From Candidatus Woesebacteria bacterium UBA1430 (GTDB lineage Bacteria > Patescibacteriota > Microgenomatia > UBA8517), in NCBI GenBank assembly GCA_002329465.1, contig DCTW01000005.1, positions 4,131 through 68,130 of the forward strand: a DNA stretch of 64,000 bases, written 5' to 3'. Position 1 is the stretch's first letter. Every line of letters starts with the position of its first letter. The notes below the pieces were generated by a model. That model had not been told where the DNA came from, ran no database searches, and saw only the letters and a program-made list of their open reading frames with translations. Both the position numbers and the translations under genes were made by a program. This document shows positions 16,501 to 29,140 of this stretch, piece after piece.

Positions 16501-17725
16501 GGCGCCTTTGATAAGCGATCCTTCTGTAAGTAATATAACGACCCGTAAGGCTGTTGTTTCTTGGACGACTTCAAGAACAAGCGATTCCAAGGTGGCTTAC
16601 GGCACCTCATCCGGAAGCTATTTTACAGAAGAAGTAAGTAACTCGGATCACGTAACAAGCCACACAATTACACTGACAAATCTTGAGCCTGGAACTACAT
16701 ATTATTACATAGCAAAATGGACCGATGAGGACGGGAACACAGGCACAAGCTCGGAAAATACTTTTGAGACAAGCCCCGCTCCCTCGGTAAAAGACGTATC
16801 CGTTTCTGAAATAGGTATAGAATCGGCGCTGATAACATTTACCGTAACAGGAGCTTCCAAAATAAAAATATACTATGGCGAATCTACATCCTTCGGAGGT
16901 ATAAAAGAAATAAGTACCTCCGCCTCTGAATCAACATATACGGCGCAATTGACAGGTCTGCTTGACGGAACAAAATATTACTATAAAATTAACGCCTTTG
17001 ATAGCGAAGAATATGAATACGCAGGTACAACACTTGATTTTGAAACACTTCCGAGGCCGCAAATAAGCGAAGTCACCGTCCAACAAGTCAAAGGAACCGC
17101 TCAACCAACCCTACTTGTCACCTGGGAAACAAACACCGAAGTGTCAAGCATTGTTTCTTACTATCCTTTGGAAAATCCTCTTCAGGCAAGAGACGAAATA
17201 AACGCAGATCTTACAAAAGGGGAGCACAAAATGATCGTCCGCGGCCTGATGCCCGAAACGGTTTATGCGCTTGTTATAAAAGGAAGAGATAAAGTAGGAA
17301 ACGAAGCCGTCTCTGATGTAATTAACTTAACAACTTCTTCCGATACACGCCCTCCACAGATAACAAATCTAAAAGTTGAAGGTAGCCTTATGCCGAATAT
17401 ATCGGATCAGGGCGAATCGGTAACCCAGCTGGTAGTTTCCTGGGATACGGACGAGCCCTCATCGGCACAAGTTGAATTCGGAGAGGGCACGGCAGATACT
17501 TACGCTCAAAAAACCCAAGAAGACTCAAATCTTACATATAATCATCTTGTAGTTATATCCGGACTTTCTCCAAGCAAAGTTTATCATCTTAGAGCGGTTT
17601 CAAAAGACAAAGCCGGAAACGAGGGTAAATCAGTTGATACCGTAACTATCACCCCCAAGGCCACAAAAAGCGCTCTTGATCTTGTAATTACAAATCTTTC
17701 CGAAGCATTCGGGTTTCTTAAATAA
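10589..17725 (+). CDS. Giant (2378 aa) secreted or surface protein made of Kelch-type beta-propeller repeat arrays and fibronectin-III-like domains.
   Basis: It has a signal peptide or N-terminal anchor. There are at least 25 repeats of about 47 aa with the pattern 'IYxxRGxxxxxFxxYxxxxxxWxxLxxxP'. Domains containing 'SPANRYIQ' and 'YYVYFG' are duplicated. The C-terminal Fn3-like modules include 'GTTYYYIAKWTDEDGNTG' and 'KVYHLRAVSKDKAGNEG'. Confidence 0.8.
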   Translation: MLKTKFKLGQKIVFKIAKKIFLLFLIFLFAFPFNIIVPKTNSVFASTSHVITTREDWDSGEFNFVESETENGSIKLRADGEWEPRSFETPNLTLSYGASFVSDGTYIYVLRGYGDDAFWKYNPNDDKWEDLASPDLGAYHGADLVIIGNYIYAIFGGNQPNFARYDKESDAWTNLESLPALVNTGGSLATDGTDIYAMRGGSTTVYFYDVSEDDWLEKPEFPSSVSYGDLVYHNGYLYNVDNSNPNRFFKYSVADGSYEQLESPPQRITNETDATIHDGYIYYMRSSNTTDFYRYNLSGGTWETLTSTPQNSRGGVVYHSADNYIYVFRGNSSYDFWKYDISNDSFLGPTDSPVTLYRGSDMLYYNSNFYILRGYNTPTFYEYDISEATWTQKADAPGNIYYYTRGTAAGQYLYFFQGNSTSFYSYDPLENLWTTLTPAPLSTSEGALAYPGSGDYIYAIRGGGTSTFWRYSISQNEWQDNEAEDLPSGIAAGSGSALISVEGDLFLLLGSGTPGFYKYDVSENSWSALLEAPFAPSNSSDIAYDNSNKILAIASNYDDDLYEYNISSNTWRRLANMSEYYGYKLGTANGSSIEYDGLGSFYIVRGQTTINLLKYNPSNYNYPVSGTWISDALDLSYVSSWVSLSASTTTPSDSSINLETRTSSDLSNWSSWESVSEGTIFSPANRYIQIKATLYASTDRTETPKLNDITVAYTGDEVDPLNPSSVTALSQQVGGSSLTSGETYSHAHPYFYWSGSDEHTSVAGYYVYFGASSDANPKTQGNWQTSGIFTVTTPLSQGSYYLRIITKDQVGNESDPVTLFTYVYSGVGADQSFTADETSEFLGTTSNVDVSNDQITLASVDGFWLEERFSLAPAGLQYAAHTPAYVSSTNKLYILRGANDNVFLEYDLTTDTWTTLSPAPDAARMGGGVIEGPAGYLFALQGNNTNKFWRYSIATDEWSDEEASDAPSNVYYGGSMVYDQSRYIYATRGDNTDSFWRYDTIDNTWSSSAVASLNFGAPTNVGTNNAYTGADLVFDGDDTIYAIQGNYQAGFSAYSISSNEWTPLLNLPILPSSGASIEISSDNSSIYYAPGDNQTDLFKYSIASNTWSQMSDAPASISYGGSIRRIGEKLYVIRGGNQTQIYTYNTETDMWKVPVRGLFGPVFQGTSLDSLNYSSAIAKGVGSNFYMIRGNYANDFISYNSQTGEVTRLKDLPSGSYLGASLVYDSVNAKIYYHPGVYWNHFYVYDTSSDTWSEETSDPPPAAPNAGSSMVYDGSRYIYLSRGGWTNSFYRFDTENQSAGTKWETLNNTPASLSYGSELVYKDSYIYTLRGANEANNPFYRYDTVEGTWDDAAVADLDIDVYYEGFLVDGHDGYLYAARGDNANEFYRYSISENSWESLASVPGQVYRGGAAISDEAGKILVFAGAGTNTFNDALYTYVQNTSSSGFQESGTYTSQAHDLTSVYKWGNITLTYQSASDTTLQVETRTSSDGSDWSGWQESTKLKTIATSYEYLINSPANRYIQVRFSLDSTNGIYSGVISDYTINYYQDLTAPSNPAAITTYSSSNKTIELTESDAWYSYTSPYFDWPDEETAGGATDSSTGSGVVGYYVYFGTNESADPAVSGELTSDTYYQAQNLVTGQTYYLRIKTADDAGNTQEEIWQPFIYKFDSTNPSIPTGLEADPSGYSAVDSFSFGWNASSDPESLITSYCYKTGAESGAWSSDQCADALTVSSVPSYKTGANVFYVRSKDSAGNYSDYATVTYYFNTGAPSAPQNLSVTPSVNTLNSFSFSWSAPAVYLGSESNIKYYYSINALPTAQSVTETLTSMLSAGAYATLPGENTFYVVAKDEAGNMDYNNYASITFTANTTAPGIPTSVDIADVSVKATSSWKLAVSWEEPSLTGAGIATYKIYRSIDGIAYTYRASTSGISYVDTGLTQQTYYYKINACDSANNCGEFSSTVSMYPDGKFTEAAPLISDPSVSNITTRKAVVSWTTSRTSDSKVAYGTSSGSYFTEEVSNSDHVTSHTITLTNLEPGTTYYYIAKWTDEDGNTGTSSENTFETSPAPSVKDVSVSEIGIESALITFTVTGASKIKIYYGESTSFGGIKEISTSASESTYTAQLTGLLDGTKYYYKINAFDSEEYEYAGTTLDFETLPRPQISEVTVQQVKGTAQPTLLVTWETNTEVSSIVSYYPLENPLQARDEINADLTKGEHKMIVRGLMPETVYALVIKGRDKVGNEAVSDVINLTTSSDTRPPQITNLKVEGSLMPNISDQGESVTQLVVSWDTDEPSSAQVEFGEGTADTYAQKTQEDSNLTYNHLVVISGLSPSKVYHLRAVSKDKAGNEGKSVDTVTITPKATKSALDLVITNLSEAFGFLK

Positions 17726-18263: not shown

Positions 18264-19043
18264 ATGGAATATACAAAGATCGTCCAAATAAATAATCTAA
18301 CTAAATCTTTTAGAGTAGGCAGTCAAGATATCAACGTACTCAAAAATATTTCATTTTCGATTTCGAATGGAGATTTTGTAATAATAGTTGGCCCTTCCGG
18401 GTGTGGTAAATCAACACTTCTTCATACAATCCTAGGTCTTGAGCCTCCGACAAGCGGGGATGTAATTTTCCTTGGCAGAAACGTCTATCGTGAATTGGCA
18501 ACCGAGGACGAGCGGTCTGATTTTCGGAAAAAACATATAGGCATGGTTTACCAGCAATCAAATTGGGTAAAAGCGCTTACTTCTATAGAGAATGTTTTTT
18601 TTCCGCTGATGCTTATGGGCTACGACGAGGAGCTCTGCAGACAAAAAGCCGAGGACATGCTCAAAAAAGTAAACATGCTTGAGTGGAAGGATTTCATTCC
18701 CACAGAACTCTCCGGTGGACAGCAGCAAAAAGTCGCTCTCGCAAGAGCACTGATTAATAATCCCGATGTAATTATCGGAGACGAGCCTACGGGAAATCTG
18801 GATTATGCGTCCGGCGAAGAGATTATGAATCTTTTTATAGAGCTTAACAGCAAAGAAAAAAAGACCGTAATAATGGTTACTCACAACCTTGATTATTTAA
18901 ACTACGCAAAAACGACAATAAGGTTGTTTGATGGACAGCTTGTCGGTATATATAAAGAAAAAGATAGGAAGCAACTTGCAAAAGATATAGAAAAATTTAA
19001 GCTTGGAAACAAATCTCAAAACAAAAATGAAAAAAGCATTTGA
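18264..19043 (+). CDS. ABC transporter ATP-binding protein (MacB/LolD/FtsE-like).
   Basis: Walker A 'GPSGCGKST', the ABC signature 'LSGGQQQK' and Walker B 'IIGDEPTGNLD' are all present. Confidence 0.9.
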   Translation: MEYTKIVQINNLTKSFRVGSQDINVLKNISFSISNGDFVIIVGPSGCGKSTLLHTILGLEPPTSGDVIFLGRNVYRELATEDERSDFRKKHIGMVYQQSNWVKALTSIENVFFPLMLMGYDEELCRQKAEDMLKKVNMLEWKDFIPTELSGGQQQKVALARALINNPDVIIGDEPTGNLDYASGEEIMNLFIELNSKEKKTVIMVTHNLDYLNYAKTTIRLFDGQLVGIYKEKDRKQLAKDIEKFKLGNKSQNKNEKSI

Positions 19044-20997
19044 CAAGGTAAAAAATTTCCCAAAAATTAGTTTTGGAAAAATTGTTCTTTCATCTTTAAA
19101 AGAATTTGTATCAATATTTTTTTTTAACATCGTTTTGATCGTTTATCTTTTGGAAATTTTTTTCGTATGGATATCTAAAAGAAAATTTTTTCCCAAAATA
19201 ATTTCGAGAAAAATTAGTCCACCGGTTCGCAAAGTTACTAATAAAATATACTCTCTATCTAAAAGATCCGAAGGCAGTATAAATACAATTAGTTTGATCA
19301 ATCTTGCCTTAAGAAGCATGAGAACCAAAAGATCCAGGACTTTTGTTACAATCGGTGGAATGTCCGTAGGTATCGGTGCGATAGTTTTTCTTGTATCGAT
19401 AGGTTATGGCCTTCAAAGGGTAGTGGTTAGCCGCGTTGCGAGACTCGAAGAGCTTAAACAGTATGAGGTAAGCACCCAAATCGGTTCGCAGGTTAAAATT
19501 ACAGATTCGTCAATGGCTGATATCTCAAACATAGACGGTGTAGTAGAAACTCTGCCGCTTATTGCAGTAGTAGGAAGGGTAAACTACCAAAACTCTGTTA
19601 CGGACCTTGCAGTATATGGAGTAACTTCAAAATTTCTAGTTCACTCTGCTATAAAACCCATTAAAGGCGACACCTTCCGGACAGAAGAAGTTGTCGTTAC
19701 TAAAAATATTCAAGAAGAAGTTTCAGGTGTTTCAGACACGAGGATTGATCAAAATATTGGAGATGAAATCGGAAAAGTGCATTTTTTAATACCCGAGGGT
19801 GAGCAGATAAAAGTAAGAAGCGAACCGTCAAAATCATCGTCACTAGTTGGCTATGCCAAAGGCACGGGTAATGCTCTTTTGGGCACTGAAGTATGGGGAA
19901 GTTATTATGATTCTGCTAACCCCGAAGACCAAGCAGAAAACACAAACGGGCAAAAAATGAGCAAATGGATAAAAGCAAGCCTGCAGGTCTGGGAAAAAGA
20001 AGGAAACGGCTTTACTGTAAAGGGGTTTATTTCAAAAGAGCAAATTAGGGTGTCAGGTGTTTTAGGCACTACAGATGAAATCGATGTTTCGGAGTTGGCA
20101 GAACTTATCGAATCAACAGGCTCGGCAGAAATCGAACTTCTCGAACTTGCTTCCGAATCGGCAGGGCTAAAGAATAATGAAATAAAAAAAGTTGATCTTG
20201 CTGAAAATACGCTTAAAGAAGCGGTTGTCAACAGATCCTTCTTAACTCTTTTAGGTATTGAAGAATCTCAAGCAGTAGGAAAAACTTTTGATATATCTTT
20301 TGTGATAGTCGGAGACCTTTTGTCAAATACGGAGGAAAAAATAGAGTCCATACCGGCTTCTTACAAAATAATCGGAGTTATCCCGGATGAAGATTCTGCC
20401 TATATCTACGTTCCTTTTTCAGATCTTAAAAGCCTTGGTATTAAAAATTATACACAACTTAAATTAGTAGTCGAAGACGATAAAAAACTTGAGCATGCCC
20501 GTAGGCAAGTAGAAGCTATGGGTTTTACAACATCCTCTGTAATAGATACGGTAAATCAAATAGATCAGCTGTTTGCCACCCTAAGATTTGCCCTTGCTTC
20601 GGTTGGAATGATAGCGCTGGCAGTTGCCGCCCTTGGTATGTTCAATACAATGACGGTATCTCTACTTGAAAGAACAAGGGAAGTAGGATTAATGAAAGCA
20701 ATGGGAATGAGATCCGGCGAGGTAAAAGATCTTTTTTTGACCGAGTCAATGACAATGGGCTTTCTGGGAGGTCTTTTTGGATTGGGCATAGGCTTTATTG
20801 CTGGAAAATTAGTAAGCGTACTTATATCCATATTGGCATTAAGTAAAGGCTTAGGCTTTATAGATATAAGCTATATTCCACCTATGTTTATACTAGTAAT
20901 AATTATTATGTCCACTCTCGTCGGTCTTTTTACAGGTATTTATCCTGCCCGCCGTGCCAAAAACATCTCTGCACTCAACGCATTGCGCTACGAATAA
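19027..20997 (+). CDS. ABC transporter permease (MacB/FtsX-like) with a large extracytoplasmic domain.
   Basis: The N-terminal transmembrane segment is 'FVTIGGMSVGIGAIVFLVSIGYG'. The C-terminal FtsX-type four-helix bundle is 'LKAMGMRSGEVKDLF…'. The track start at 19003 overlaps the ATPase gene, so I used the ATG at 19027. Confidence 0.75.
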   Translation: MKKAFDKVKNFPKISFGKIVLSSLKEFVSIFFFNIVLIVYLLEIFFVWISKRKFFPKIISRKISPPVRKVTNKIYSLSKRSEGSINTISLINLALRSMRTKRSRTFVTIGGMSVGIGAIVFLVSIGYGLQRVVVSRVARLEELKQYEVSTQIGSQVKITDSSMADISNIDGVVETLPLIAVVGRVNYQNSVTDLAVYGVTSKFLVHSAIKPIKGDTFRTEEVVVTKNIQEEVSGVSDTRIDQNIGDEIGKVHFLIPEGEQIKVRSEPSKSSSLVGYAKGTGNALLGTEVWGSYYDSANPEDQAENTNGQKMSKWIKASLQVWEKEGNGFTVKGFISKEQIRVSGVLGTTDEIDVSELAELIESTGSAEIELLELASESAGLKNNEIKKVDLAENTLKEAVVNRSFLTLLGIEESQAVGKTFDISFVIVGDLLSNTEEKIESIPASYKIIGVIPDEDSAYIYVPFSDLKSLGIKNYTQLKLVVEDDKKLEHARRQVEAMGFTTSSVIDTVNQIDQLFATLRFALASVGMIALAVAALGMFNTMTVSLLERTREVGLMKAMGMRSGEVKDLFLTESMTMGFLGGLFGLGIGFIAGKLVSVLISILALSKGLGFIDISYIPPMFILVIIIMSTLVGLFTGIYPARRAKNISALNALRYE

Positions 20998-21039: not shown

Positions 21040-21939
21040 ATGAAAAAGATTTTACCCTTACTATTAATAGTATATTTTTTTGTCTTTTCCGAGAAATCTG
21101 TTTGTGCTCAAATAAAGACGGAAGTCCCAAGCCCTACCGCGACTTTCGAGTCTGAACCAACAGCCTCGCCGGATCCGACTCCGGAGCCAACCCCAAGGGT
21201 TGACATTACCCAAAAAAGCGAAGAATCAATAGGCCCTCTCGAAAAGCTTTTAAACGATCAGGTGTTAGGGCCTGTTTTTCCCGCAAACCCACTTAAATAT
21301 GCAATTCGTGCTTCAGTCAAAGCGGGAGTGCCGCCTAACACTATAGTACTTCTAATTCTCTTGCCGTTAATAGCCGCAGTTATAGCAGCGGCACGCCACA
21401 TAATAGGCTTAAGAGGATTTGGTATTTTTCTGCCGGCTGCTTTATCAATAGTATTTGTTGCGATAGGCCCTGTAGTCGGGCTTTTGTTGTTTTTAGTTAT
21501 AGTATCCGCCTCGACATTTTTTAGAATGCTTTTAAGAAAAATAAAAATCAAGCTTCAATATTTACCAAGGATGTCTTTGATTCTCTGGTTTGTTGTCTGC
21601 GGAGTTCTTTTGGTGTTGTTTCTCGCACCGCTTATCAAAATACCCGGGCTTACCAATGTTTCGATTTTCCCGGTTTTGCTTTTGGTTCTTCTTGCGGAAG
21701 ATTTTACCAAACTCCAGCTTGGAAAAAGCGCACGTACAGCGGTAAGCTTTATAACGGAAACAATTATTTTGTCTTTGATATCATATATGTTTCTTACCAT
21801 GCAGTCGCTTCAGCGTTATGCTTTGCTCAATCCGGAGATTACGCTTCTATCGGTTGCGGTTTTTGATCTCATATTAGGAAAATATACAGGCCTTCGCGTA
21901 TTGGAATACTGGAGATTCAGAAAACTAATTAAAGGCTAA
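21040..21939 (+). CDS. Signal peptide plus a seven-helix polytopic membrane protein.
   Basis: A cleavable-looking signal ('…FVFSEKSVCAQ') is followed by a Pro/Thr-rich linker and then seven hydrophobic helices. The gene sits directly upstream of the ATP-grasp genes. Confidence 0.55.
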   Translation: MKKILPLLLIVYFFVFSEKSVCAQIKTEVPSPTATFESEPTASPDPTPEPTPRVDITQKSEESIGPLEKLLNDQVLGPVFPANPLKYAIRASVKAGVPPNTIVLLILLPLIAAVIAAARHIIGLRGFGIFLPAALSIVFVAIGPVVGLLLFLVIVSASTFFRMLLRKIKIKLQYLPRMSLILWFVVCGVLLVLFLAPLIKIPGLTNVSIFPVLLLVLLAEDFTKLQLGKSARTAVSFITETIILSLISYMFLTMQSLQRYALLNPEITLLSVAVFDLILGKYTGLRVLEYWRFRKLIKG

Positions 21940-21943
21940 ATCT

Positions 21944-23269
21944 ATGAAAGCTCAAAACATCTTGGGTCTTAACGCAAGAACTCAACTTTTTTCATATCAA
22001 TACAATAAACCAAAGTCAAAACGCATTGCCTCATCAAAACTGTTAACTGAAAAGGTGCTTAAAAAGGCCGGTATTCCAACTCCGCTAATATATAAAAAAT
22101 TTATAAAGCCGAAAGATATTCTTAATTTTGACTGGAACGGCCTGCCTGAAGCTTTCGTAGTTAAACCAAGCAGGGGACTGGGAGGAAATGGGATCATAGT
22201 CATTAAAAAAAGATCTAAAGACAAAACAGGTTGGATCACAACAAGTAGGAAAAAATTACTCGAAGAAGATTTAAAACTCCATGTTTTAGATATTTTAGAA
22301 GGCGCTTTTAGCATGCACAACTCACCGGACGCAGCCTTTATTCAGGAATACGTACCTCGCCATAAAGCTTTTAGAAAGTACGCATATCGCGGCACGCCTG
22401 ATATAAGAATTATTGTTTTTAACAAAGTGCCGGTAATGGCGATGATGCGTCTTCCCACAAAAGATTCCGGCGGCCGAGCAAATCTCCATCAGGGCGCAAT
22501 AGGTGTGGGAGTTGATATAGCAACAGGTATAACAACAAAGTCTATTTGGTATGGCAATCAGATCCGCTATAAACCGGGCACAAAAAGAAAGCTTCATGGT
22601 ATTAAAATCCCTCACTGGACGGATATATTAAAAATTGCGGTCTTGAGCCAAGAAGCATCAGGGCTTGGACTTTTAGGGGTTGATATTGTTCTTCATCCTA
22701 CCAAAGGGCCAATGGTTCTCGAGTTAAACTATCAGCCGGGTACGCAGATACAGCTTGCAAACATGGCAGGTCTTAGAAAAAGGCTTGAGAGAGTTGAAGA
22801 TCTTAAAGTAAGAGATGCAGAGCATGGTGTTAAAATTGCAAAAGCACTTTTTATGTCTGACTTCTCAGATAGAGTAAAAGCAGATGAAGGGGTAAAAACA
22901 ATTTCGTCATTAGAAGAGATAAAAATAAAAGGCGCTCAAAAAGGGCTCAGAAAAAAGGTTTACGCAAAAGTCGATACGGGTGCCTGGAGAACGTCAATTA
23001 GTAAAAAATTAGCCGAAGAATTAGGACTTCTTAATCAGAATAACATCCTTTGGACTAAAGAATTCAAAAGTTCTCTTGGTAAAGAAGAAAGGCCCGTTAT
23101 AAGCCTTACATTTTGGCTTGCGGGTAGAAAAATCACAACTCCAGCTTCAGTCGCGAAAAGAATGACACTTAAATATCCAATAATAATAGGAAGAAAAAAT
23201 CTTAAAGGTTTCTTGGTAGATCCGCACATTCCCATAGATAAAGTAAAGGAGGCAAGAGAAAAAAAATGA
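21944..23269 (+). CDS. RimK-like ATP-grasp ligase fused to a C-terminal retropepsin-like (clan AA) aspartic protease domain.
   Basis: The ATP-grasp core carries 'VVKPSRGLGGNGIIVI' and 'ELNYQPG'. The C-terminal domain carries the active-site motif 'AKVDTGAWRTS' (D-T-G-A) and 'PIIIGRKNL'. Confidence 0.7.
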   Translation: MKAQNILGLNARTQLFSYQYNKPKSKRIASSKLLTEKVLKKAGIPTPLIYKKFIKPKDILNFDWNGLPEAFVVKPSRGLGGNGIIVIKKRSKDKTGWITTSRKKLLEEDLKLHVLDILEGAFSMHNSPDAAFIQEYVPRHKAFRKYAYRGTPDIRIIVFNKVPVMAMMRLPTKDSGGRANLHQGAIGVGVDIATGITTKSIWYGNQIRYKPGTKRKLHGIKIPHWTDILKIAVLSQEASGLGLLGVDIVLHPTKGPMVLELNYQPGTQIQLANMAGLRKRLERVEDLKVRDAEHGVKIAKALFMSDFSDRVKADEGVKTISSLEEIKIKGAQKGLRKKVYAKVDTGAWRTSISKKLAEELGLLNQNNILWTKEFKSSLGKEERPVISLTFWLAGRKITTPASVAKRMTLKYPIIIGRKNLKGFLVDPHIPIDKVKEAREKK

Positions 23270-24138
23270 AAGTAGCTTTAGTTACCACACTTCCTTCACT
23301 TATTGAAAATAGCCGCATTAAAGAAGAAATAAAAGCCCTAAACTACAGCTTCACACTAATAGATTTAAGCAATTTTTCCTTCAGCGTAGTTGGAGGAAAT
23401 TTAAGCGTAAAAGGCCTTACGGATCAAGAATTCGATATAATAATTTCAAGAGGAATATTTAGCTCAATAAAACCAATTATAGCCGTTCTTCAGGGATTAA
23501 GAAAAAAGGGAATTAAAATATTTGACAACAATTTTCTTCACGATCAATACCTTATAAACAAAACTTCCGATTTGGCAAAGCTGGCTTTAAATAATATCCC
23601 GGTTCCAAACACCGCTCAATCAAGAAATTTTTCCGACTACAAAAATTTATCAAGTAATTTAGGCTTCCCGTTGGTAATCAAATCTACACGCATGGGAAAA
23701 GGAGCAAATGTGTTCAAAATTTCTAATTTAAATGGTCTTTATAGATTTATCGAAGATGAAGAAAATCGAGGTCGTGAAGCTAAAAACTTTATTCTCCAAG
23801 AATTTATTCCTTATAAATACGACCTTCGTGTCTTAATTATCGGAGACAGGGTTTTTACGATGAGAAGAATACCGGCAAAAGGTGAGTTCAGAGCAAATTT
23901 TTCTTTAGGTGGGCATGTCGAAAAATTTGATTTGGATGAAGATGGCCTAAATTTGGCAAAATCTGCCCTTAAGGCAGTTGGTCTCGAAATTGGCGGAGTA
24001 GATTTGCTCATAACTAAAGACAACAAAAAATATGTTCTAGAAGTAAACCATACGGCTGGGTTTGTAGGCATGGAAAAAGCATATAATGAAAATATCGGAA
24101 AAGTATTTGTTGAATACGCCATAGCAAACGCAAGATGA
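23266..24138 (+). CDS. RimK/LysX-like ATP-grasp ligase.
   Basis: The motifs 'PLVIKSTRMGKGANV', 'QEFIPYKYDLRVLIIGDRV' and 'LEVNHTAGF' are present. The gene is translationally coupled to its neighbours. Confidence 0.75.
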   Translation: MKVALVTTLPSLIENSRIKEEIKALNYSFTLIDLSNFSFSVVGGNLSVKGLTDQEFDIIISRGIFSSIKPIIAVLQGLRKKGIKIFDNNFLHDQYLINKTSDLAKLALNNIPVPNTAQSRNFSDYKNLSSNLGFPLVIKSTRMGKGANVFKISNLNGLYRFIEDEENRGREAKNFILQEFIPYKYDLRVLIIGDRVFTMRRIPAKGEFRANFSLGGHVEKFDLDEDGLNLAKSALKAVGLEIGGVDLLITKDNKKYVLEVNHTAGFVGMEKAYNENIGKVFVEYAIANAR

Positions 24139-25037
24139 AAATTTTAATAGTTGGTTTAGTCAAAAATAGCCAGATCGTTCGCCTTCAAGAAGAAGGAGAA
24201 AAACGAGGCCACAAAGTAGAAGGCTGCTACACAAACGAGCTTGTAATAGAAACTGGGTCAGATTTTTTTAACCCGACGCTTAGAGGAAAATCCCTGAAGA
24301 ATTATGATCTAATTTACCTCTGGTCAGCAGGAAAACGCAGATGGGAATGGTACACAGCCTGTCTTTATCTTTGGGAAAAATTTGGAAGCATAATAATTAA
24401 CAAAAAGTGCATCTCCCCCGAGTACAATTTTTACTTAACTCCTGCAATTGATTACTATCTTCAGGTAAAAAATAAACTTCCATTTCCACGCTCCGCAATA
24501 ATATTTTCAACCAAATCAATTGACTCGGTTATCAAGGACTTTAACTTCCCGCTTATTCTTAAAACCTCAGGAGGAAGGCAGGGCAAGGGAGTATTCAAAA
24601 TAGAAGATAAAGATGCCCTAAAAAATAAAAGCGATGAGCTTTTCAAAGTTTCACCGAGCCTGGTTATAAGAGAGTTTATTCCAAACGACGGAGATATTAG
24701 AATTTTTACCGTCGGCTACAAGACAATTGCGGCAATGAAACGAATCCCCACACAAAAAGGCGAATTTAGAAGCAACATAAGTCAAGGAGGTAGGGGTGAA
24801 AATTTTAACCTCGATGATTATCCTAAAATTCGCGATATTGCCGAAAAAGCAAGTAAAATTATGGAAACAGAAATAGCGGGTGTGGACATTATAATTGATA
24901 AAAAGACACGCATGCCGTATATTTTGGAAATTAATCCCGGCCCGCAATTTACAGGGCTTGAAAAGTACACCAAGGTAAACGCCGCTAAAAAAATAATAGA
25001 ATATTTCGAAGAAGTTAAACATGCTATAATTCCATAA
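24135..25037 (+). CDS. RimK-like ATP-grasp ligase (third paralog).
   Basis: The motifs 'PLILKTSGGRQGKGVF', 'REFIPNDGDIRIFTVG' and 'LEINPGP' are present. Confidence 0.7.
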   Translation: MKILIVGLVKNSQIVRLQEEGEKRGHKVEGCYTNELVIETGSDFFNPTLRGKSLKNYDLIYLWSAGKRRWEWYTACLYLWEKFGSIIINKKCISPEYNFYLTPAIDYYLQVKNKLPFPRSAIIFSTKSIDSVIKDFNFPLILKTSGGRQGKGVFKIEDKDALKNKSDELFKVSPSLVIREFIPNDGDIRIFTVGYKTIAAMKRIPTQKGEFRSNISQGGRGENFNLDDYPKIRDIAEKASKIMETEIAGVDIIIDKKTRMPYILEINPGPQFTGLEKYTKVNAAKKIIEYFEEVKHAIIP

Positions 25038-25038
25038 A

Positions 25039-25518
25039 ATGTGCATAGAAGCAGGGGAAAACTGCCTGCTCAAAAGCTTTTGTGATTTTTTGGATTTTAA
25101 CCAACTATCAGAACTTCTTGTTGAGAGGATTATTCTGATACACGAAAACACAATACCTTCCTCGGATATATTTCCTCAGTGCCAAGGTGATTTATACCTT
25201 CGTCTTAAAGAGTTGATAAATGAAACTTTTAAAAACACTGATATTATAAAAAAATGTCACGATTTGATAAATGAAAGTGGGATAACCGGAAATGCTGATA
25301 GGGAACTTTTATGTATGGATATCTTTGGAAAAGACAATAATCTTAATAACCCCTCACAAATATATCTTGCCACCCTTTTTATTTCTTCACCCTTTCTTAA
25401 TCCTACCGAATTTGGGCAACATCTAATTGAAGGGCCAAAACAAATTTTGGGATACACCTATCAATTGTCCGCAAAAGACATTAAAACAGTATTTTCGGAA
25501 TTAAATGAATTACTTTAA
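25039..25518 (+). CDS. Hypothetical protein that starts one nucleotide after the stop of the third ATP-grasp gene.
   Basis: A 159-aa ORF with no recognised domain. Confidence 0.4.
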   Translation: MCIEAGENCLLKSFCDFLDFNQLSELLVERIILIHENTIPSSDIFPQCQGDLYLRLKELINETFKNTDIIKKCHDLINESGITGNADRELLCMDIFGKDNNLNNPSQIYLATLFISSPFLNPTEFGQHLIEGPKQILGYTYQLSAKDIKTVFSELNELL

Positions 25519-25539: not shown

Positions 25540-25974
25540 TTACTTAAGCTCTACGCTTGCGCCTGCCGCTTTAAGCTTTTCGGCCGCCTCTTTTGCCTCC
25601 TCGGCCTTGGCGTCTTTTAGAATCTCGGCGGGGACAGCCTCTGTCATATCTTTAGCTTCCTTAAGACCAAGATTTTGATTGATCTCACGGATTGCTTTTA
25701 TGACAGCTATTTTATTTGCACCGGAATCGGTAAGAACAACTGTTTTATTTCCGCCTTCATCAGCCGCAGAATCAGCCGAAGCATCACCGGCGGAAGCCGC
25801 AGGAGCTGCAGCCGGAGCAGCCATAGCAATAGGTGAAACACCGAGTTTGTCCTGCAATTCATTAACAAGATCAGATAGCTCAAGCACGGAAAGCTTGCTA
25901 ATTTCATCGACAATTTTTCCAACCTTCACGCTTACTTTTTTGTTGTCTTTATCTTCTGCTGCCATAATTTTCAC
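25540..25974 (-). CDS. rplL: Ribosomal protein L7/L12.
   Basis: An Ala-rich hinge is followed by the C-terminal 'KEAKDMTEAVP…LKAAGASVELK'. Confidence 0.9.
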   Translation of the reverse strand: MKIMAAEDKDNKKVSVKVGKIVDEISKLSVLELSDLVNELQDKLGVSPIAMAAPAAAPAASAGDASADSAADEGGNKTVVLTDSGANKIAVIKAIREINQNLGLKEAKDMTEAVPAEILKDAKAEEAKEAAEKLKAAGASVELK

Positions 25975-26501
25975 CCCCTTGCCTCAGTTAAAATCAAAAC
26001 AAGTTTTTGCATGTTTGCATTTAAAATTCCTGTTATTCCATACAAAGGTGAAGACACTGCTCCGACAACTCTTGCCAAAAGCTCGTCTTTTCCGGGAAGC
26101 TTTGAAATTCTTATCAATCCCTCTTTATCTTGAAAAACACCTTCAATAACCCCGGCTTTAAAATCCGTAATTTCTGCTTCAAGCTGGAACTTACCAAGTA
26201 TCTGAATGGGGGAAACAGGGTCATCATTCGAAAAAACCAAAGCGGTTTGGTTGGTTAAAGCATTTTCATTATCTGAGATTTCCTTGAATCCGGCATTAAT
26301 AGCAGCAATCTTAAGAAGCGTATTTTTTGCAACAAGCATATTTGCTCCTTGTTCCTTTAGCCTTTTTTTAAGCTCCTGCTGAGACTTTACGTCAAGGCGG
26401 CTATAATCTATTAAAGCAAAGCCCTTAGCAGACTTCATAATAGCCGAAAGCTCTTCTACCTTTTCCTTCTTTTCTGGTTTAATTTTGGTATCTGATTTCA
26501 T
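25971..26501 (-). CDS. rplJ: Ribosomal protein L10.
   Basis: The L10 N-terminal pattern 'EKKEKVEELSAIMKSAKGFALIDYSRL' is present. Confidence 0.9.
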   Translation of the reverse strand: MKSDTKIKPEKKEKVEELSAIMKSAKGFALIDYSRLDVKSQQELKKRLKEQGANMLVAKNTLLKIAAINAGFKEISDNENALTNQTALVFSNDDPVSPIQILGKFQLEAEITDFKAGVIEGVFQDKEGLIRISKLPGKDELLARVVGAVSSPLYGITGILNANMQKLVLILTEARG

Positions 26502-27477: not shown

Positions 27478-28016
27478 TCTAAGAGTCCTTTTTTTAAGCC
27501 CTTTCCTAGAACTATCGACGCTTGATCTTCTTTTAGACGGATCGCCCCACAGGGCTTAGATAATTTGTGAGAATCAAAAAGCGAAGCCTTAAATCTCAAT
27601 AAGTCTCGCAACCGTCCCGTTTCCACTTTAGGTATTTTCTTTTTTTCAGGCCATGCGTCAAGATATTCAGAAACTGGTTCTTTATCCATAAAGCTTTCTC
27701 TATGACTTAGATCCGGGATGCCAATTTGTAATAAACAAAATCTATTGGGATGCATTATCAAATATCGATGGTCAACATTATATCGATCTCGCTCAAGATT
27801 AACCCTTATGGGTTTAAGAATTACAACTCCTCCATCATTAATTTGGGCAGCAATAGGAAGATCGGTCAAATTTTGAATATCGGAAATTCTTTGTATGATA
27901 CTGACACGTCTCTCATAAGCACTAATTGCTGCAAGTTCATTTTGAGCGACGGCTTCCTCAAGGTCACTCAGTATATCAGCAGAGGGGACAGGTATATTAT
28001 CATATCTCTCAATCAT
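27474..28016 (-). CDS. Hypothetical protein (180 aa) coupled to the 3' end of rplA.
   Basis: Its start codon lies 8 nt inside the end of rplA. No family recognised. Confidence 0.45.
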   Translation of the reverse strand: MIERYDNIPVPSADILSDLEEAVAQNELAAISAYERRVSIIQRISDIQNLTDLPIAAQINDGGVVILKPIRVNLERDRYNVDHRYLIMHPNRFCLLQIGIPDLSHRESFMDKEPVSEYLDAWPEKKKIPKVETGRLRDLLRFKASLFDSHKLSKPCGAIRLKEDQASIVLGKGLKKGLLE

Positions 28017-28719
28017 TTAAATCAATCTTCACAGAAGGGGACATACTGGCGCAAACATGCGCGCGATCTACGTTTTTGAGGCCAATAGCGTCAAATATTG
28101 CCTTTATATTTTCAGCAATTTTAGAAGGATCCATTGAAAGCTTGCCGACTGTGGTGTGGATAACAGGCTGCTTTTTCTCCGTCTTTATCGTCACGCTTTT
28201 TGCGGAAAAAAACTCAGCTTCCTTTTCGGATTTTATTAGGGTTTTGTTTTTTGGATTAGGCATAAGTCCGCGTGGACCCAAAATTTTTGCAAAAGGTACC
28301 AATTTGGGCATAAATTCGGCAGTTGCTAGAAGTACATCAAAATCTATTTTTCCCGATTCAAGTTTTTTTATTGTTGCTTCACTTGCTAATTCAATGCGTT
28401 TTTCTTTTCCTGTGGAATGCGGTAATTCAAGATTAATTTGAATATCGTCTTTTTTTGTTTTTATATGAAGCTCTACTGTACCGTCAAACTTTGCAAGATG
28501 TGTTTCCTTAATAAGCTTTAGAGCATCTTTAATTGAATAAAGCTTGTTTTTATCTATTTTGGATTTCATTTCTTTATATCTTTTTCCTCGCTCCTTTTTG
28601 GCTCTTTTGGATGATTTTTTGGTTTCTTCTGCCTCTGGTTTTTCAAAAACCGGTTCAGCATTTTTAAGATCTGAAGCTTTTCCTGTTTCTCCGACTATTG
28701 CCGTTTTAGTTTTTCCCAT
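28009..28719 (-). CDS. rplA: Ribosomal protein L1.
   Basis: The motif 'LVPFAKILGPRGLMPNPKNKT' is present. Confidence 0.9.
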   Translation of the reverse strand: MGKTKTAIVGETGKASDLKNAEPVFEKPEAEETKKSSKRAKKERGKRYKEMKSKIDKNKLYSIKDALKLIKETHLAKFDGTVELHIKTKKDDIQINLELPHSTGKEKRIELASEATIKKLESGKIDFDVLLATAEFMPKLVPFAKILGPRGLMPNPKNKTLIKSEKEAEFFSAKSVTIKTEKKQPVIHTTVGKLSMDPSKIAENIKAIFDAIGLKNVDRAHVCASMSPSVKIDLND

Positions 28720-29140
28720 TGATTTTTACCCCCATGCTCCGTGCAGTTCCGGCGACAATTCGCTTCGCCGCTTCAACATCATCGGTATTCAAATCCGCCA
28801 TTTTTTCCCTTGCTATTTCATTAACTTGCGAATCATTTAAAGTACCTACAATATCCCTGGGCGTTGCCCCGGACCCCTTTTCAATTTTTAATGCCTTTTT
28901 AATCATCTCGGAAACAGGAGCAAGCCTAAGCTCGAAATCAAAGCTTCTATCCTCATAAATAGTAATAACAGCCGGGACAACCTGGCCCTTTTTTTCCGCT
29001 GTTTTGTCATTATAAGCCTTGACAAAGTCCATAATAGCTACACCGTGTTGTCCCAAAATAGGCCCGAGCGGAGCAGCGGGCGTTGCTTCCCCGGCTTTCA
29101 GATTTACCTTAACTGTAGTTAAAACTTTCTTTGCAGCCAT
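28706..29140 (-). CDS. rplK: Ribosomal protein L11.
   Basis: The motif 'PAAPLGPILGQHGVAIMDFVKAYN' is present. Confidence 0.9.
   Translation of the reverse strand: MAAKKVLTTVKVNLKAGEATPAAPLGPILGQHGVAIMDFVKAYNDKTAEKKGQVVPAVITIYEDRSFDFELRLAPVSEMIKKALKIEKGSGATPRDIVGTLNDSQVNEIAREKMADLNTDDVEAAKRIVAGTARSMGVKINGKN

What the first reader, a model, noticed from the sequence alone, without database searches (positions are those of the whole stretch)
21944..23269. ATP-grasp ligase fused to a retroviral-type aspartic protease domain
The C-terminal 100 aa of this 441-aa ATP-grasp protein contain 'KVDTGAWRTS', which is the D-T/S-G-A retropepsin active-site signature, and 'IIIGRKNL', which resembles the retropepsin flap/dimerisation region. 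A ligase covalently tethered to a protease implies coupled synthesis and processing on the same substrate. The fusion also marks the locus as a member of the little-studied RimK-retropepsin families.
Basis: partly seen in the sequence, partly recalled or inferred. Interest (0 to 1): 0.65.

Follow-up and report, generated by a model that had tools for sequence, protein, structure and literature searches.

The report
Ligase fused to retropepsin-like protease
This gene from a tiny "candidate phyla radiation" bacterium really does join a RimK/RloC-type peptide ligase to a retrovirus-like aspartic protease domain; it is a previously undescribed but widespread fused variant of the recently characterised bacterial Rlo/Rim polyglutamate "write-and-trim" systems.

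Summary
Confirmed. ORF 21944-23269(+) encodes a 441-aa protein: an RloC-type ATP-grasp ligase (PF14397, aa ~15-305), a ~10-aa flexible linker, and a C-terminal retropepsin-fold domain (aa ~317-430). That domain is a divergent PF05618 (RimB/RloA) member. The AF2 model is confident (pLDDT 86.6) and all 50 best PDB fold matches are retropepsins, led by RloA. K342, D344-T345-G346-A347, R383 and R406 match the residues shown experimentally to matter in RloA, and most are invariant in 120 homologues. "IIIGRKNL" is the retroviral GR(N/D) helix motif, not the flap; the flap is hairpin 368-392. The gene lies in a tightly packed four-gene cluster: a 7TM protein (RloB-like, without the transglutaminase domain), the fusion, and two RimK-family ligases. 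The 7TM-plus-fusion pair recurs in about 70 of 80 related loci, almost all Patescibacteria. Likely function: synthesis of an acidic (poly-alpha-glutamate-like) chain and its endoproteolytic trimming by the tethered, dimerising protease, at the membrane. It differs from RloABC (secreted free protease, transglutaminase domain) and from the published RimBK hybrid (protease N-terminal, true RimK). It is a new variant of a known kind. Activity, substrate and dimerisation are untested.

The parts
21040..21939 (+). 7TM membrane protein, 299 aa. It has an N-terminal signal-peptide-like segment, a Pro/Thr-rich segment predicted to be extracellular, and seven TM helices homologous to the C-terminal half of RloB. 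It has no inactive-transglutaminase domain.
   Evidence: PF14402 7TM_transglut, 81.8 bits (cutoff 25), aa 104-296. NF052267 RloB matches only profile positions 312-507 at 58.9 bits against a cutoff of 900. The stop is 4 nt before the fusion's ATG. A homologue sits directly upstream of the fusion in about 70 of 80 related loci.
21944..22858 (+). ATP-grasp ligase domain of the fusion protein (aa 1-305), RloC / 'alpha-L-glutamate ligase-like' type.
   Evidence: PF14397, 219.7 bits, aa 15-285. TIGR02291, 266 bits, below its cutoff of 314. AF2 is confident. The nearest solved folds are ArgX/LysX and RimK. K74, D247, E260 and N262 are invariant in 120 homologues, and D247/E260/N262 have the spacing of the D...E-x-N Mg-ATP motif of ATP-grasp enzymes (own knowledge).
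22862..22888 (+). Inter-domain linker (aa 307-315), predicted to be flexible.
   Evidence: This is the only internal segment with pLDDT below 50 in the full-length AF2 model. Its sequence varies among homologues.
22892..23233 (+). Retropepsin-like aspartic protease domain (aa about 317-430). It is a short-flap subfamily of PF05618 (RimB/RloA family). Key features: catalytic D344-T345-G346-A347; K342, R383 and R406 as predicted acidic-substrate ligands; flap hairpin 368-392 with G379 at its tip; G416-R417 helix motif.
   Evidence: profiles; AF2 pLDDT 86.6; Foldseek: 9g58 RloA at E 5e-7, then 2pma, 9g59, foamy-virus and HIV proteases, APRc, Ddi1; A341, K342, D344, G346, G379, R383, R406, G416 and R417 invariant in 120 sequences; T345 and A347 at least 90%.
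23234..23269 (+). Lys/Glu-rich C-terminal tail and stop codon of the fusion. The stop overlaps the start of the next gene (ATGA).
   Evidence: Tail length and sequence are not conserved.
23266..24138 (+). RimK-family ATP-grasp ligase 1 (290 aa).
   Evidence: PF08443, 95.6 bits, plus a weak Rimk_N hit (E 3.3e-4, 21.3 bits, below its 26.4 cutoff). TIGR00768, 141.2 bits against a cutoff of 143.4. It has a 4-nt overlap with the neighbouring gene on each side. Orthologues (E below 1e-90) follow the fusion in the closest relatives.
24135..25037 (+). RimK-family ATP-grasp ligase 2 (300 aa).
   Evidence: PF08443, 122.1 bits. TIGR00768, 158 bits, above its cutoff of 143.4. Orthologues are present in the closest relatives. 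More distant relatives have 0 to 3 divergent RimK-like genes instead.

Best explanation
The ORF encodes a bifunctional cytoplasmic enzyme of a Patescibacteria (Woesebacteria-type) variant of the Rlo/Rim systems.

Shown here: an RloC-type ATP-grasp amidoligase is joined by a flexible linker to a retropepsin-fold domain. That domain keeps the catalytic Asp-Thr-Gly-Ala and the Lys/Arg residues that in RloA bind oligo-glutamate. The gene is tightly packed (4-nt gap or 4-nt overlaps) with a 7TM RloB-like membrane protein and two RimK-family ligases.

Inferred mechanism:
1. The ligase domain, possibly helped by the two RimK paralogues, uses ATP to add acidic residues, most likely alpha-linked L-glutamate, onto a carboxylate acceptor. 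This builds an oligo- or poly-glutamate chain or tail.
2. Two fusion protomers pair through their retropepsin domains to form the two-Asp active site. Its basic channel captures the nascent acidic chain and cuts it endoproteolytically. This would set chain length, release product, or erase the modification. As RimB does for RimK, it may also stimulate the ligase.
3. The 7TM partner holds the enzyme at the membrane and may pass the product to the cell surface.

Fusion guarantees 1:1 stoichiometry and places writer and eraser on the same substrate.
For: - Domain identity.
- Residue mapping to experimentally validated RloA residues: K342-x-D344 matches K46-x-D48, and R383/R406 match R114/R137 with the same 23-residue spacing (alignments; roles from PMC12239564, read). 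K342, D344, R383 and R406 are invariant in 120 homologues retrieved by whole-protein similarity.
- Co-variation: in diverse representatives the DTGA motif and the two Arg are kept together (36) or lost together (22), with only 2 mixed cases. This is as expected if they serve one catalytic function, and the window protein belongs to the intact class.
- Charge and cysteines: the domain is strongly basic (29 K+R against 14 D+E) and has no Cys. This fits an acidic substrate and a cytosolic location (RloA's disulphide is periplasm-specific).
- Ligase fold: the nearest solved folds, RimK and LysX/ArgX, all ligate onto a protein C-terminal carboxylate.
- Context: 7TM plus fusion is conserved in about 70 of 80 loci. 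Two archaeal loci have the same short-flap protease free-standing, directly upstream of a RimK, which links this protease type to RimK-like ligases independently of the fusion.
- Precedents: RimB cleaves poly-Glu and stimulates RimK, and a RimB-RimK hybrid is proteolytically active (PMC11957791). RloA cleaves runs of at least 8 Glu, and rloB/rloC deletions suppress the protease-null phenotype (PMC12239564).
Against: - No activity of RloC-type ligases has been demonstrated, so glutamate as the added residue is an analogy.
- TIGR02291 and all RloA/RimB NCBIfam models score far below their cutoffs, so this is not an orthologue of any tested enzyme.
- The flap region is about 27-29 residues shorter than in RloA (D-to-R spacing of 39 against 66-68), so substrate length or specificity may differ.
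- Dimerisation could not be modelled with the tools available.
- No genome-encoded poly-Glu protein and no S6 gene is in the window, so no substrate candidate was identified.
- Many relatives carry a degenerate, presumably inactive copy of the domain, which shows the domain can be retained for a non-catalytic role.
Confidence: 0.6

Rival explanations
1. The C-terminal domain is a non-catalytic module. It would be a retropepsin-fold dimerisation, scaffold or allosteric domain that oligomerises or activates the ligase (as RimB stimulates RimK's ATPase) without cutting anything.
For: In 22 of 60 scorable diverse representatives, especially the roughly 780-816-aa MATCAP fusions and some roughly 429-aa Woesebacteria proteins, the domain persists although DTG and both Arg are lost. 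A structural role therefore exists in the family. RimB has a documented non-proteolytic stimulatory effect on RimK.
Against: In the window's own clade, D344, G346, K342, R383 and R406 are invariant and T345 and A347 are at least 90% conserved in 120 sequences at 65-77% overall identity. They are also kept in relatives down to about 41% domain identity, although that set was retrieved using the motif itself. Such retention of a catalytic dyad motif together with substrate-binding arginines is not expected for a pure scaffold.
Confidence: 0.15
2. Polyprotein-style self-processing. The retropepsin domain cuts the linker to free itself from the ligase, as retroviral proteases do, so that the mature products are separate RloC-like and RimB-like proteins.
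For: There is a flexible, low-confidence linker at 307-315. Self-excision is the classical behaviour of retropepsins (own knowledge). Free-standing 115-aa versions exist in two archaeal loci.
Against: The linker and flanks contain no acidic run of the kind RimB/RloA need, which is at least 5-8 Glu. The linker sequence is not conserved. The D. psychrophila RimBK hybrid was purified as a hybrid protein and was active as such.
Confidence: 0.07
3. A ribosome-modification module like RimBK/RimABK. The cluster would polyglutamylate and de-glutamylate ribosomal protein S6 or another ribosomal protein, and the 7TM gene would be incidental.
For: Two genuine RimK-family genes lie in the cluster. The cluster lies next to rplL-rplJ in 42 of 80 loci. 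RimK/RimB act on RpsF.
Against: The ribosomal genes are convergent on the other strand, and the adjacency is absent from most of the more distant loci, so it looks like inherited gene order. The 7TM gene is the most constant partner, whereas the RimK genes are variable or absent. The fused ligase is RloC-type, not RimK. The genetics of the RloABC system point to the envelope. S6 could not be examined because it is not in the window.
Confidence: 0.1

Closest known systems
RloABC system of Pseudomonas aeruginosa / P. fluorescens (Lormand et al., mBio 2025, PMC12239564)
   Same: It has the same three building blocks in one co-directional cluster: a PF14402 7TM protein, a PF14397/TIGR02291-type ATP-grasp, and a PF05618 retropepsin-like peptidase with DTGA and the K46/R114/R137 equivalents. 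RloA structures are the best fold and sequence matches.
   Different: - Here the peptidase is fused to the C-terminus of the cytoplasmic ligase. It has no signal peptide and no Cys pair, whereas RloA is a free, secreted, disulphide-stapled protein.
- The 7TM protein lacks the periplasmic inactive-transglutaminase domain. The window protein has a short Pro/Thr-rich N-terminus, and some other Patescibacteria have a PKD domain instead.
- The flap is about 27-29 residues shorter.
- Two extra RimK paralogues are present.
- All scores against the RloA, RloB and RloC NCBIfam models are far below their cutoffs.
- The host is Patescibacteria rather than Gammaproteobacteria.
RimBK hybrid protein (Desulfotalea psychrophila DP2392; Little et al., JBC 2025, PMC11957791)
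   Same: It is a single polypeptide combining a PF05618 retropepsin-like protease with a RimK-superfamily ATP-grasp ligase. The hybrid and its isolated protease domain cleave polyglutamylated RpsF.
   Different: The domain order is opposite: in RimBK the protease is N-terminal (residues 1-163). The ligase there is a true RimK, not an RloC-type ATPgrasp_ST. No 7TM partner is described. It is found mostly in Flavobacteriales and Rhodobacterales. The window protein is therefore probably an independent fusion event.
RimB-RimK (and RimA) of Pseudomonas fluorescens
   Same: A cytosolic retropepsin-like endopeptidase works with an ATP-grasp alpha-L-glutamate ligase. The peptidase needs a dimer and the catalytic Asp of DTG. 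Two archaeal relatives of the window domain have exactly this two-gene layout.
   Different: The proteins are separate. The target is ribosomal protein S6. There is no membrane partner. The RimB NCBIfam model scores only 15 bits on the window domain.
Classical retropepsins and retropepsin-like proteases (HIV-1 and foamy-virus proteases, Ddi1, Rickettsia APRc)
   Same: They share the half-barrel fold (Foldseek E 1e-5 to 1e-3, rmsd 2.7-4 A over about 100 residues), the DTGA signature, the Gly-Arg helix motif, and a flap of similar, short length.
   Different: Sequence identity is only 19-24%. The window domain has a basic channel with RloA-type arginines, is fused to a ligase, and has no viral or transposon context.

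Membership tests
PF05618 / RimB-RloA family of retropepsin-like aspartic peptidases (clan AA) | Match to the family profile above the curated threshold | tested here: met
   PF05618 scores 27.6 bits against a cutoff of 27.0 in the whole protein, and 30.9-31.1 bits for the domain alone. All 22 of 22 homologous domains match, with a best E of 4.5e-11. The pass is marginal and covers mainly the C-terminal half of the profile (positions 71-129 of 138).
PF05618 / RimB-RloA family of retropepsin-like aspartic peptidases (clan AA) | Catalytic Asp-Thr-Gly followed by Ala | tested here: met
   D344-T345-G346-A347 is present. D344 and G346 are invariant, and T345 and A347 are at least 90% conserved, in 120 homologues found by whole-protein similarity.
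PF05618 / RimB-RloA family of retropepsin-like aspartic peptidases (clan AA) | Retropepsin half-barrel fold | tested here: met
   The AF2 domain model has pLDDT 86.6 and pTM 0.76. All 50 of the top Foldseek PDB hits are retropepsin-fold proteins, with 9g58, 2pma and 9g59 first at E 5e-7 to 4e-6. This rests on a predicted structure, not a solved one.
PF05618 / RimB-RloA family of retropepsin-like aspartic peptidases (clan AA) | Basic residues lining the oligo-Glu channel (RloA K46, R114, R137) | tested here: met
   K342, R383 and R406 align to these positions and are invariant. R92 of RloA falls in the segment absent here.
PF05618 / RimB-RloA family of retropepsin-like aspartic peptidases (clan AA) | Long flexible flaps (longer than in HIV protease) | tested here: not met
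   The Asp-to-'RPVI' spacing is 39 residues here, and 36-40 in 63 of the 80 related loci (the automated measure failed or mis-assigned in the other 17). It is 66-68 in RloA/RloA2. The predicted flap is a compact hairpin at 368-392. Long-flap fused relatives do exist, for example P0132 from Jacksonbacteria.
PF05618 / RimB-RloA family of retropepsin-like aspartic peptidases (clan AA) | Homodimer forming a two-Asp active site | not testable with these tools
   Only monomer prediction is available. Conservation of the Thr of DTG and of the G416-R417 motif is compatible with dimerisation, but this is inference.
PF05618 / RimB-RloA family of retropepsin-like aspartic peptidases (clan AA) | Endoproteolysis of poly-alpha-glutamate | not testable with these tools
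   This needs a biochemical assay.
RloABC operon (Lormand et al. 2025) | RloC-type cytoplasmic ATP-grasp | tested here: inconclusive
   PF14397 is met strongly (219.7 bits), but TIGR02291 scores 266 bits, below its cutoff of 314. It is the same domain family, but not an equivalog.
RloABC operon (Lormand et al. 2025) | RloB: inactive transglutaminase domain fused to 7TM | tested here: not met
   Only the 7TM half is present (PF14402, 81.8 bits). NF052267 matches profile positions 312-507 only, at 58.9 bits against a cutoff of 900. No transglutaminase domain is found in the upstream genes.
RloABC operon (Lormand et al. 2025) | Secreted RloA with signal peptide and conserved disulphide | tested here: not met
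   The peptidase is an internal C-terminal domain of a protein with no TM segment or signal peptide, and it has no Cys in residues 312-441.
RloABC operon (Lormand et al. 2025) | Conserved linkage of the three functions in one gene cluster | tested here: met
   The 7TM gene lies immediately upstream of the fusion on the same strand in about 70 of 80 loci, and in L001-L005 and L086-L088.
RimBK hybrid (Little et al. 2025) | RimB domain at the N-terminus of a RimK-type ligase | tested here: not met
   Here the protease is C-terminal. The ligase's best family is PF14397, while PF08443 RimK scores only 36.6 bits and TIGR00768 scores 49.7 against a cutoff of 143.4.

The most novel reading that the evidence does not exclude
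Patescibacteria carry a self-contained, membrane-tethered 'writer-eraser' enzyme for an acidic peptide tag or polymer. A single polypeptide would both build and trim poly-alpha-glutamate-like chains in the cytoplasm and hand them to a 7TM partner for display on the cell surface.

Its relatives have swapped the eraser. The retropepsin domain is inactivated and a MATCAP-type metallo-carboxypeptidase is appended, which parallels the eukaryotic tubulin ligase/carboxypeptidase cycles.

If true, the fused form shows that the Rlo protease acts directly on the product of the Rlo ligase. It also shows that neither periplasmic location nor the transglutaminase domain is essential to the core mechanism. 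This would give a minimal system with which to solve the still unknown biochemistry of RloABC.
Probability: 0.3. Interest if true: 0.7.

Novelty: new variant of a known kind. Interest (0 to 1): 0.5.

Why it matters
The RloABC system affects osmotic tolerance, cell shape, biofilm formation and antibiotic sensitivity in Pseudomonas. Its chemistry is unknown: nobody has shown what RloC makes, what RloB does, or where RloA meets its substrate (PMC12239564).

The fusion found here is widespread in Patescibacteria. It physically ties the protease to the ligase in the cytoplasm and dispenses with the transglutaminase domain. That is strong comparative evidence (the "Rosetta-stone" argument) that the protease works on the ligase's own product. 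It also offers a compact two-protein system (7TM plus fusion) for reconstitution.

It extends the known range of these systems well beyond Proteobacteria, where the Rlo paper places 96% of RloB hits. Within one family it also reveals a natural series of active and inactivated retropepsin domains combined with other peptidases.

The proteins are already in public databases under generic or misleading names such as "ATP-dependent zinc protease". This is therefore a reinterpretation and extension of known systems rather than a new kind of system.

Tried and rejected
- The Iyer/Aravind 2009 amidoligase paper (PMC3268129), which probably first described these operons, is not held. I could not check whether any ATP-grasp-peptidase fusion was noted there.
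- The sigma-70 promoter scan was no better than shuffles (23 found against 24.4 expected). Terminator-like hits were about twice the shuffle mean (16 against 8.8, sd 2.9) but none marks an evident operon boundary. The operon structure rests on gene spacing only.
- Substrate hunt: no ORF in the window has an acidic C-terminal tail or an internal run of at least 5 Glu.
- The upstream MacB-type ABC transporter (18264-20997) was considered as an exporter for the product. I rejected it as part of the module because the permease is absent from all 80 related loci and present only in same-species contigs.
- ORF 25039-25518 (159 aa) was considered as a fifth gene or substrate. It has no Pfam or NCBIfam hit and no homologue in the 80 loci.
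- The longer 7TM proteins in distant relatives were suspected of retaining the transglutaminase domain. They carry PKD domains instead.
- Literature searches for a description of the Patescibacteria fusion found nothing. The held library is incomplete, so this is not proof of absence.
- Dimer modelling is not possible with the monomer-only predictor.
Full report
**1. Observation**

ORF 21944..23269 (+) starts with ATG and encodes 441 aa. 'KVDTGAWRTS' lies at residues 342-351 and 'IIIGRKNL' at 413-420. The opposite strand has only short shadow ORFs, and no Rfam family is detected there.

A D[TS]G[AS] tetrapeptide appears in 1.9% of shuffles of this protein. This is the only DTGA in all six-frame ORFs of the window. 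The motif alone proves little, so the case rests on the evidence below.

**2. Domain identity**

- Ligase domain: Pfam gives PF14397 (ATPgrasp_ST) at aa 15-285 with E 6e-65.
- Protease domain: PF05618 just passes its threshold (27.6 vs 27.0 bits), and PF13650/PF13975 hit the DTGA region weakly. On its own the domain scores 30.9-31.1 bits, and all 22 homologous domains tested match PF05618.
- NCBIfam: the ligase is closest to TIGR02291 'alpha-L-glutamate ligase-like' (266 bits, cutoff 314). The C-terminus is closest to the RloA1/2/3 and RimB models, but far below their cutoffs.
- Solved structures by sequence: a profile of the C-terminal domain finds RloA2 (9g59, E 6e-6), RloA (9g58) and Legionella Lpg0085 (2pma), then weakly APRc and Ddi1.

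**3. Structure**

- AlphaFold2 on the domain with 22 homologues gives mean pLDDT 86.6 and pTM 0.76. The domain is beta-rich with one short helix, and DTGA directly follows a strand in a block with pLDDT about 90.
- Foldseek against the PDB returns only retropepsin-fold proteins in the top 50. RloA, 2pma and RloA2 come first (E 5e-7 to 4e-6), then foamy-virus and HIV-1 proteases, APRc and Ddi1.
- The full-length model (120 homologues) has pLDDT 84.9 and pTM 0.79. It shows two confident domains joined by a linker at residues 307-315, which is the only internal segment with pLDDT below 50.
- The ligase domain is structurally closest to ArgX/LysX and RimK. These are ATP-grasp enzymes that ligate an amino acid onto a protein C-terminal carboxylate (own knowledge of those families).

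**4. Functional residues**

The RloA paper shows that D48 is essential and that K46, R114 and R137 line a basic channel for oligo-glutamate. R114A and R137A are the most damaging substitutions. RloA is a dimer with long disordered flaps and a periplasm-specific disulphide.

- K342-x-D344 reproduces K46-x-D48 here.
- R383 (in 'ERPVISL') and R406 (in 'AKRMTLKYPIIIG') align with the 'RPVI' and 'DRS..YP.(L/I)IG' segments of RloA. They are 23 residues apart, as R114 and R137 are.
- In 120 homologues collected by whole-protein similarity (65-77% identity), A341, K342, D344, G346, G379, R383, R406, G416 and R417 are invariant. T345, A347 and W348 are at least 90% conserved.
- The domain has 29 K+R against 14 D+E and no cysteine.
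- 'IIIGRKNL' corresponds to the retroviral Ile-Ile-Gly-Arg-Asn/Asp motif at the start of the single helix (own knowledge of HIV-1 protease residues 84-88). In the model the helix begins right after G416-R417. It is therefore not the flap. The flap is the hairpin 368-392 with invariant G379 near its tip.
- The Asp-to-'RPVI' distance is 39 residues here, against 66-68 in RloA. This is a short-flap subfamily.

**5. Context in the window**

| Coordinates | Product | Evidence |
|---|---|---|
| 21040-21939 | 299-aa protein: signal-peptide-like N-terminus, Pro/Thr-rich stretch, PF14402 7TM module | Matches only the C-terminal half of RloB; no inactive-transglutaminase domain |
| 21944-23269 | The ligase-protease fusion | See sections 2-4 |
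| 23266-24138 | RimK-family ligase 1 | |
| 24135-25037 | RimK-family ligase 2 | |

Gaps and overlaps between these genes are 4 nt, which suggests translational coupling. This is an inference. The promoter scan was uninformative and the terminator-like hits, though about twice the shuffle mean, mark no evident operon boundary.

**6. Distribution**

- The whole-protein search gave 4874 hits. The best 120 are all about 425-463 aa, and where they carry a name it is Woesebacteria or Patescibacteria, annotated 'alpha-L-glutamate ligase-like protein' or 'ATP-dependent zinc protease'.
- A scan of species-representative genomes with the domain signature found 87 loci. They are mostly Woesebacteria/Microgenomates, with other Patescibacteria and a few archaeal-labelled MAGs.
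- Many MAGs are labelled 'uncultured Gammaproteobacteria'. They share Woesebacteria synteny, and one is a 0.6-Mb chromosome, so I take these labels to be placeholders (inference).
- In about 74 of the 80 loci the domain is fused to the ATP-grasp, and in about 70 the 7TM gene is immediately upstream.
- RimK1/RimK2 orthologues occur only in the closest relatives. Others have 0 to 3 divergent RimK-like genes. The core is therefore the 7TM gene plus the fusion.
- Two archaeal-labelled loci (L071, L083) encode the same short-flap domain as a free 115-aa protein directly upstream of a genuine RimK.
- The motif-based scan cannot show that the fusion is restricted to Patescibacteria.

**7. An internal control from diverse relatives**

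An exhaustive search of 50%-identity representatives gave 1795 hits. Besides the ~430-445-aa class, it revealed:

- ~465-500-aa fusions with longer flaps, for example from Jacksonbacteria;
- ~780-816-aa triple fusions with a C-terminal MATCAP/PF08014 metallo-carboxypeptidase domain;
- a YdjC fusion and a double-ATP-grasp fusion;
- ~300-330-aa stand-alone RloC-like ligases.

The census was independent of the motif. Among the 60 representatives scorable at the key columns:

| | Both Arg kept | Both Arg not kept |
|---|---|---|
| DTGA kept | 36 | 1 |
| DTGA lost | 1 | 22 |

Fisher's p is 4e-14, but this is not corrected for phylogeny and so is descriptive only. Most MATCAP fusions are in the degenerate class. 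Two conclusions follow:

1. The catalytic motif and the arginines behave as one functional unit, and the window protein is in the intact class.
2. The domain can also be kept for a non-catalytic role, which sustains the main rival explanation.

**8. Mechanism**

Shown: the architecture, the predicted fold, the conservation of residues validated in RloA, and the gene linkage.

Inferred by analogy with RimK/RimB and with the genetics of RloABC (protease-null defects are suppressed by deleting rloB or rloC):

- The ligase builds an acidic, probably alpha-glutamyl, chain.
- Two protomers pair their retropepsin domains and cut that chain, and possibly stimulate the ligase.
- The 7TM partner localises the enzyme at the membrane and may export or display the product.

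I put 0.6 on this as a whole. The identity of the domains themselves is above 0.95. The rivals are a non-catalytic scaffold (0.15), S6/ribosome modification (0.10) and self-excision (0.07).

**9. Comparison with known systems**

- It works like RimB-RimK and RloA-RloC.
- It is not a member of the RloABC operon type as defined: there is no secreted protease, no disulphide, no transglutaminase domain, and scores are below the equivalog cutoffs.
- It is not a member of the RimBK hybrid class: the domain order is opposite and the ligase clade is different.
- It is a member of PF05618 and clan AA, although it does not meet the family's long-flap feature.
- I found no description of this architecture in the searchable literature. 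The 2009 amidoligase survey could not be read.

**10. Verdict**

This is a real, correctly spotted feature. It is a new variant of a known kind, and the proteins are already present in databases under uninformative names. Interest is moderate (0.5). It would not astonish a specialist, because ligase-retropepsin partnerships and one hybrid are already published. It does, however, bear directly on the unsolved biochemistry of the Rlo system and offers a minimal, naturally fused version for testing it.

Noticed in passing
Proteins P0124, P0143, P0157, P0164, P0167 and others (relatives); not in the window: There are about 780-816-aa triple fusions of ATPgrasp_ST, a retropepsin-like domain and MATCAP/PF08014 (TIGR02421 'QEGLA'), a metallo-carboxypeptidase family. 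In most of them the retropepsin-like domain has lost DTG and both arginines, as if the carboxypeptidase had replaced it as the 'eraser'. A ligase plus MATCAP pairing echoes the eukaryotic tubulin tyrosination cycle.
   Followed up: partly
L071:5943-7270 and L083:5968-7295: Two archaeal-labelled MAGs (Woesearchaeota, Parvarchaeota) encode the same short-flap PF05618 domain as a free 115-aa protein directly upstream of a genuine RimK ligase. This is a minimal RimB-RimK pair in DPANN-type archaea.
   Followed up: partly
L015:4246-6366: A single 706-aa ORF combines the 7TM module, an N-terminally truncated ATP-grasp and the retropepsin-like domain. It is either a true triple fusion or a deletion or assembly artefact in that MAG.
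   Followed up: no
L069:3413-4969, L073:3408-5057, L075, L082, L085: In Andersenbacteria-labelled and 'Saccharibacteria'-labelled relatives the 7TM partner is about 520-550 aa. It carries an N-terminal PKD domain where RloB has the inactive transglutaminase domain.
   Followed up: partly
window 25540-26501 (- strand) and 28009-29140 (- strand): The ribosomal protein genes rplL and rplJ (the latter two ORFs identified from their translations only, presumably rplA/rplK) lie convergent to the cluster. The rplL-rplJ adjacency recurs in 42 of 80 related loci, mostly the closer ones. This is probably inherited gene order, but a link between RimK-type ligases and ribosomal proteins cannot be excluded.
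   Followed up: partly
window 10589-17725 (+): A giant 2378-aa ORF has a signal-like N-terminus, many Kelch-like 'Y.Y..RG' repeats and repeated FN3-like modules. It is probably a surface protein and was not analysed.
   Followed up: no
window 18264-20997 (+): An ABC ATPase plus a MacB/FtsX-type permease lie directly upstream of the 7TM gene with a 43-nt gap. The permease is absent from all 80 related loci, and is present only in same-species contigs L086-L088, so it is not part of the conserved module.
   Followed up: yes
window 25039-25518 (+): A 159-aa ORF follows RimK2 with a 1-nt gap. It has no Pfam or NCBIfam match and no homologue in the 80 related loci, although it is called as a gene in same-species contigs. 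Its status is unknown.
   Followed up: partly
Loci L008-L010, L013, L018, L020 and others; record titles: Many MAGs titled 'uncultured Gammaproteobacteria bacterium' (binchicken assemblies) carry this locus with Woesebacteria-like synteny and 55-75% identity. One is a 0.6-Mb 'chromosome' (OZ246397.1). These taxonomic labels look like placeholders or errors.
   Followed up: no
P0131 / P0275 (MBP7842480.1, Candidatus Woesebacteria): Some Woesebacteria carry a roughly 429-aa version of the fusion in which DTGA is replaced by NTGR and the first arginine (R383 equivalent) is lost. Whether these co-exist as paralogues with an intact copy in the same genome was not determined.
   Followed up: no
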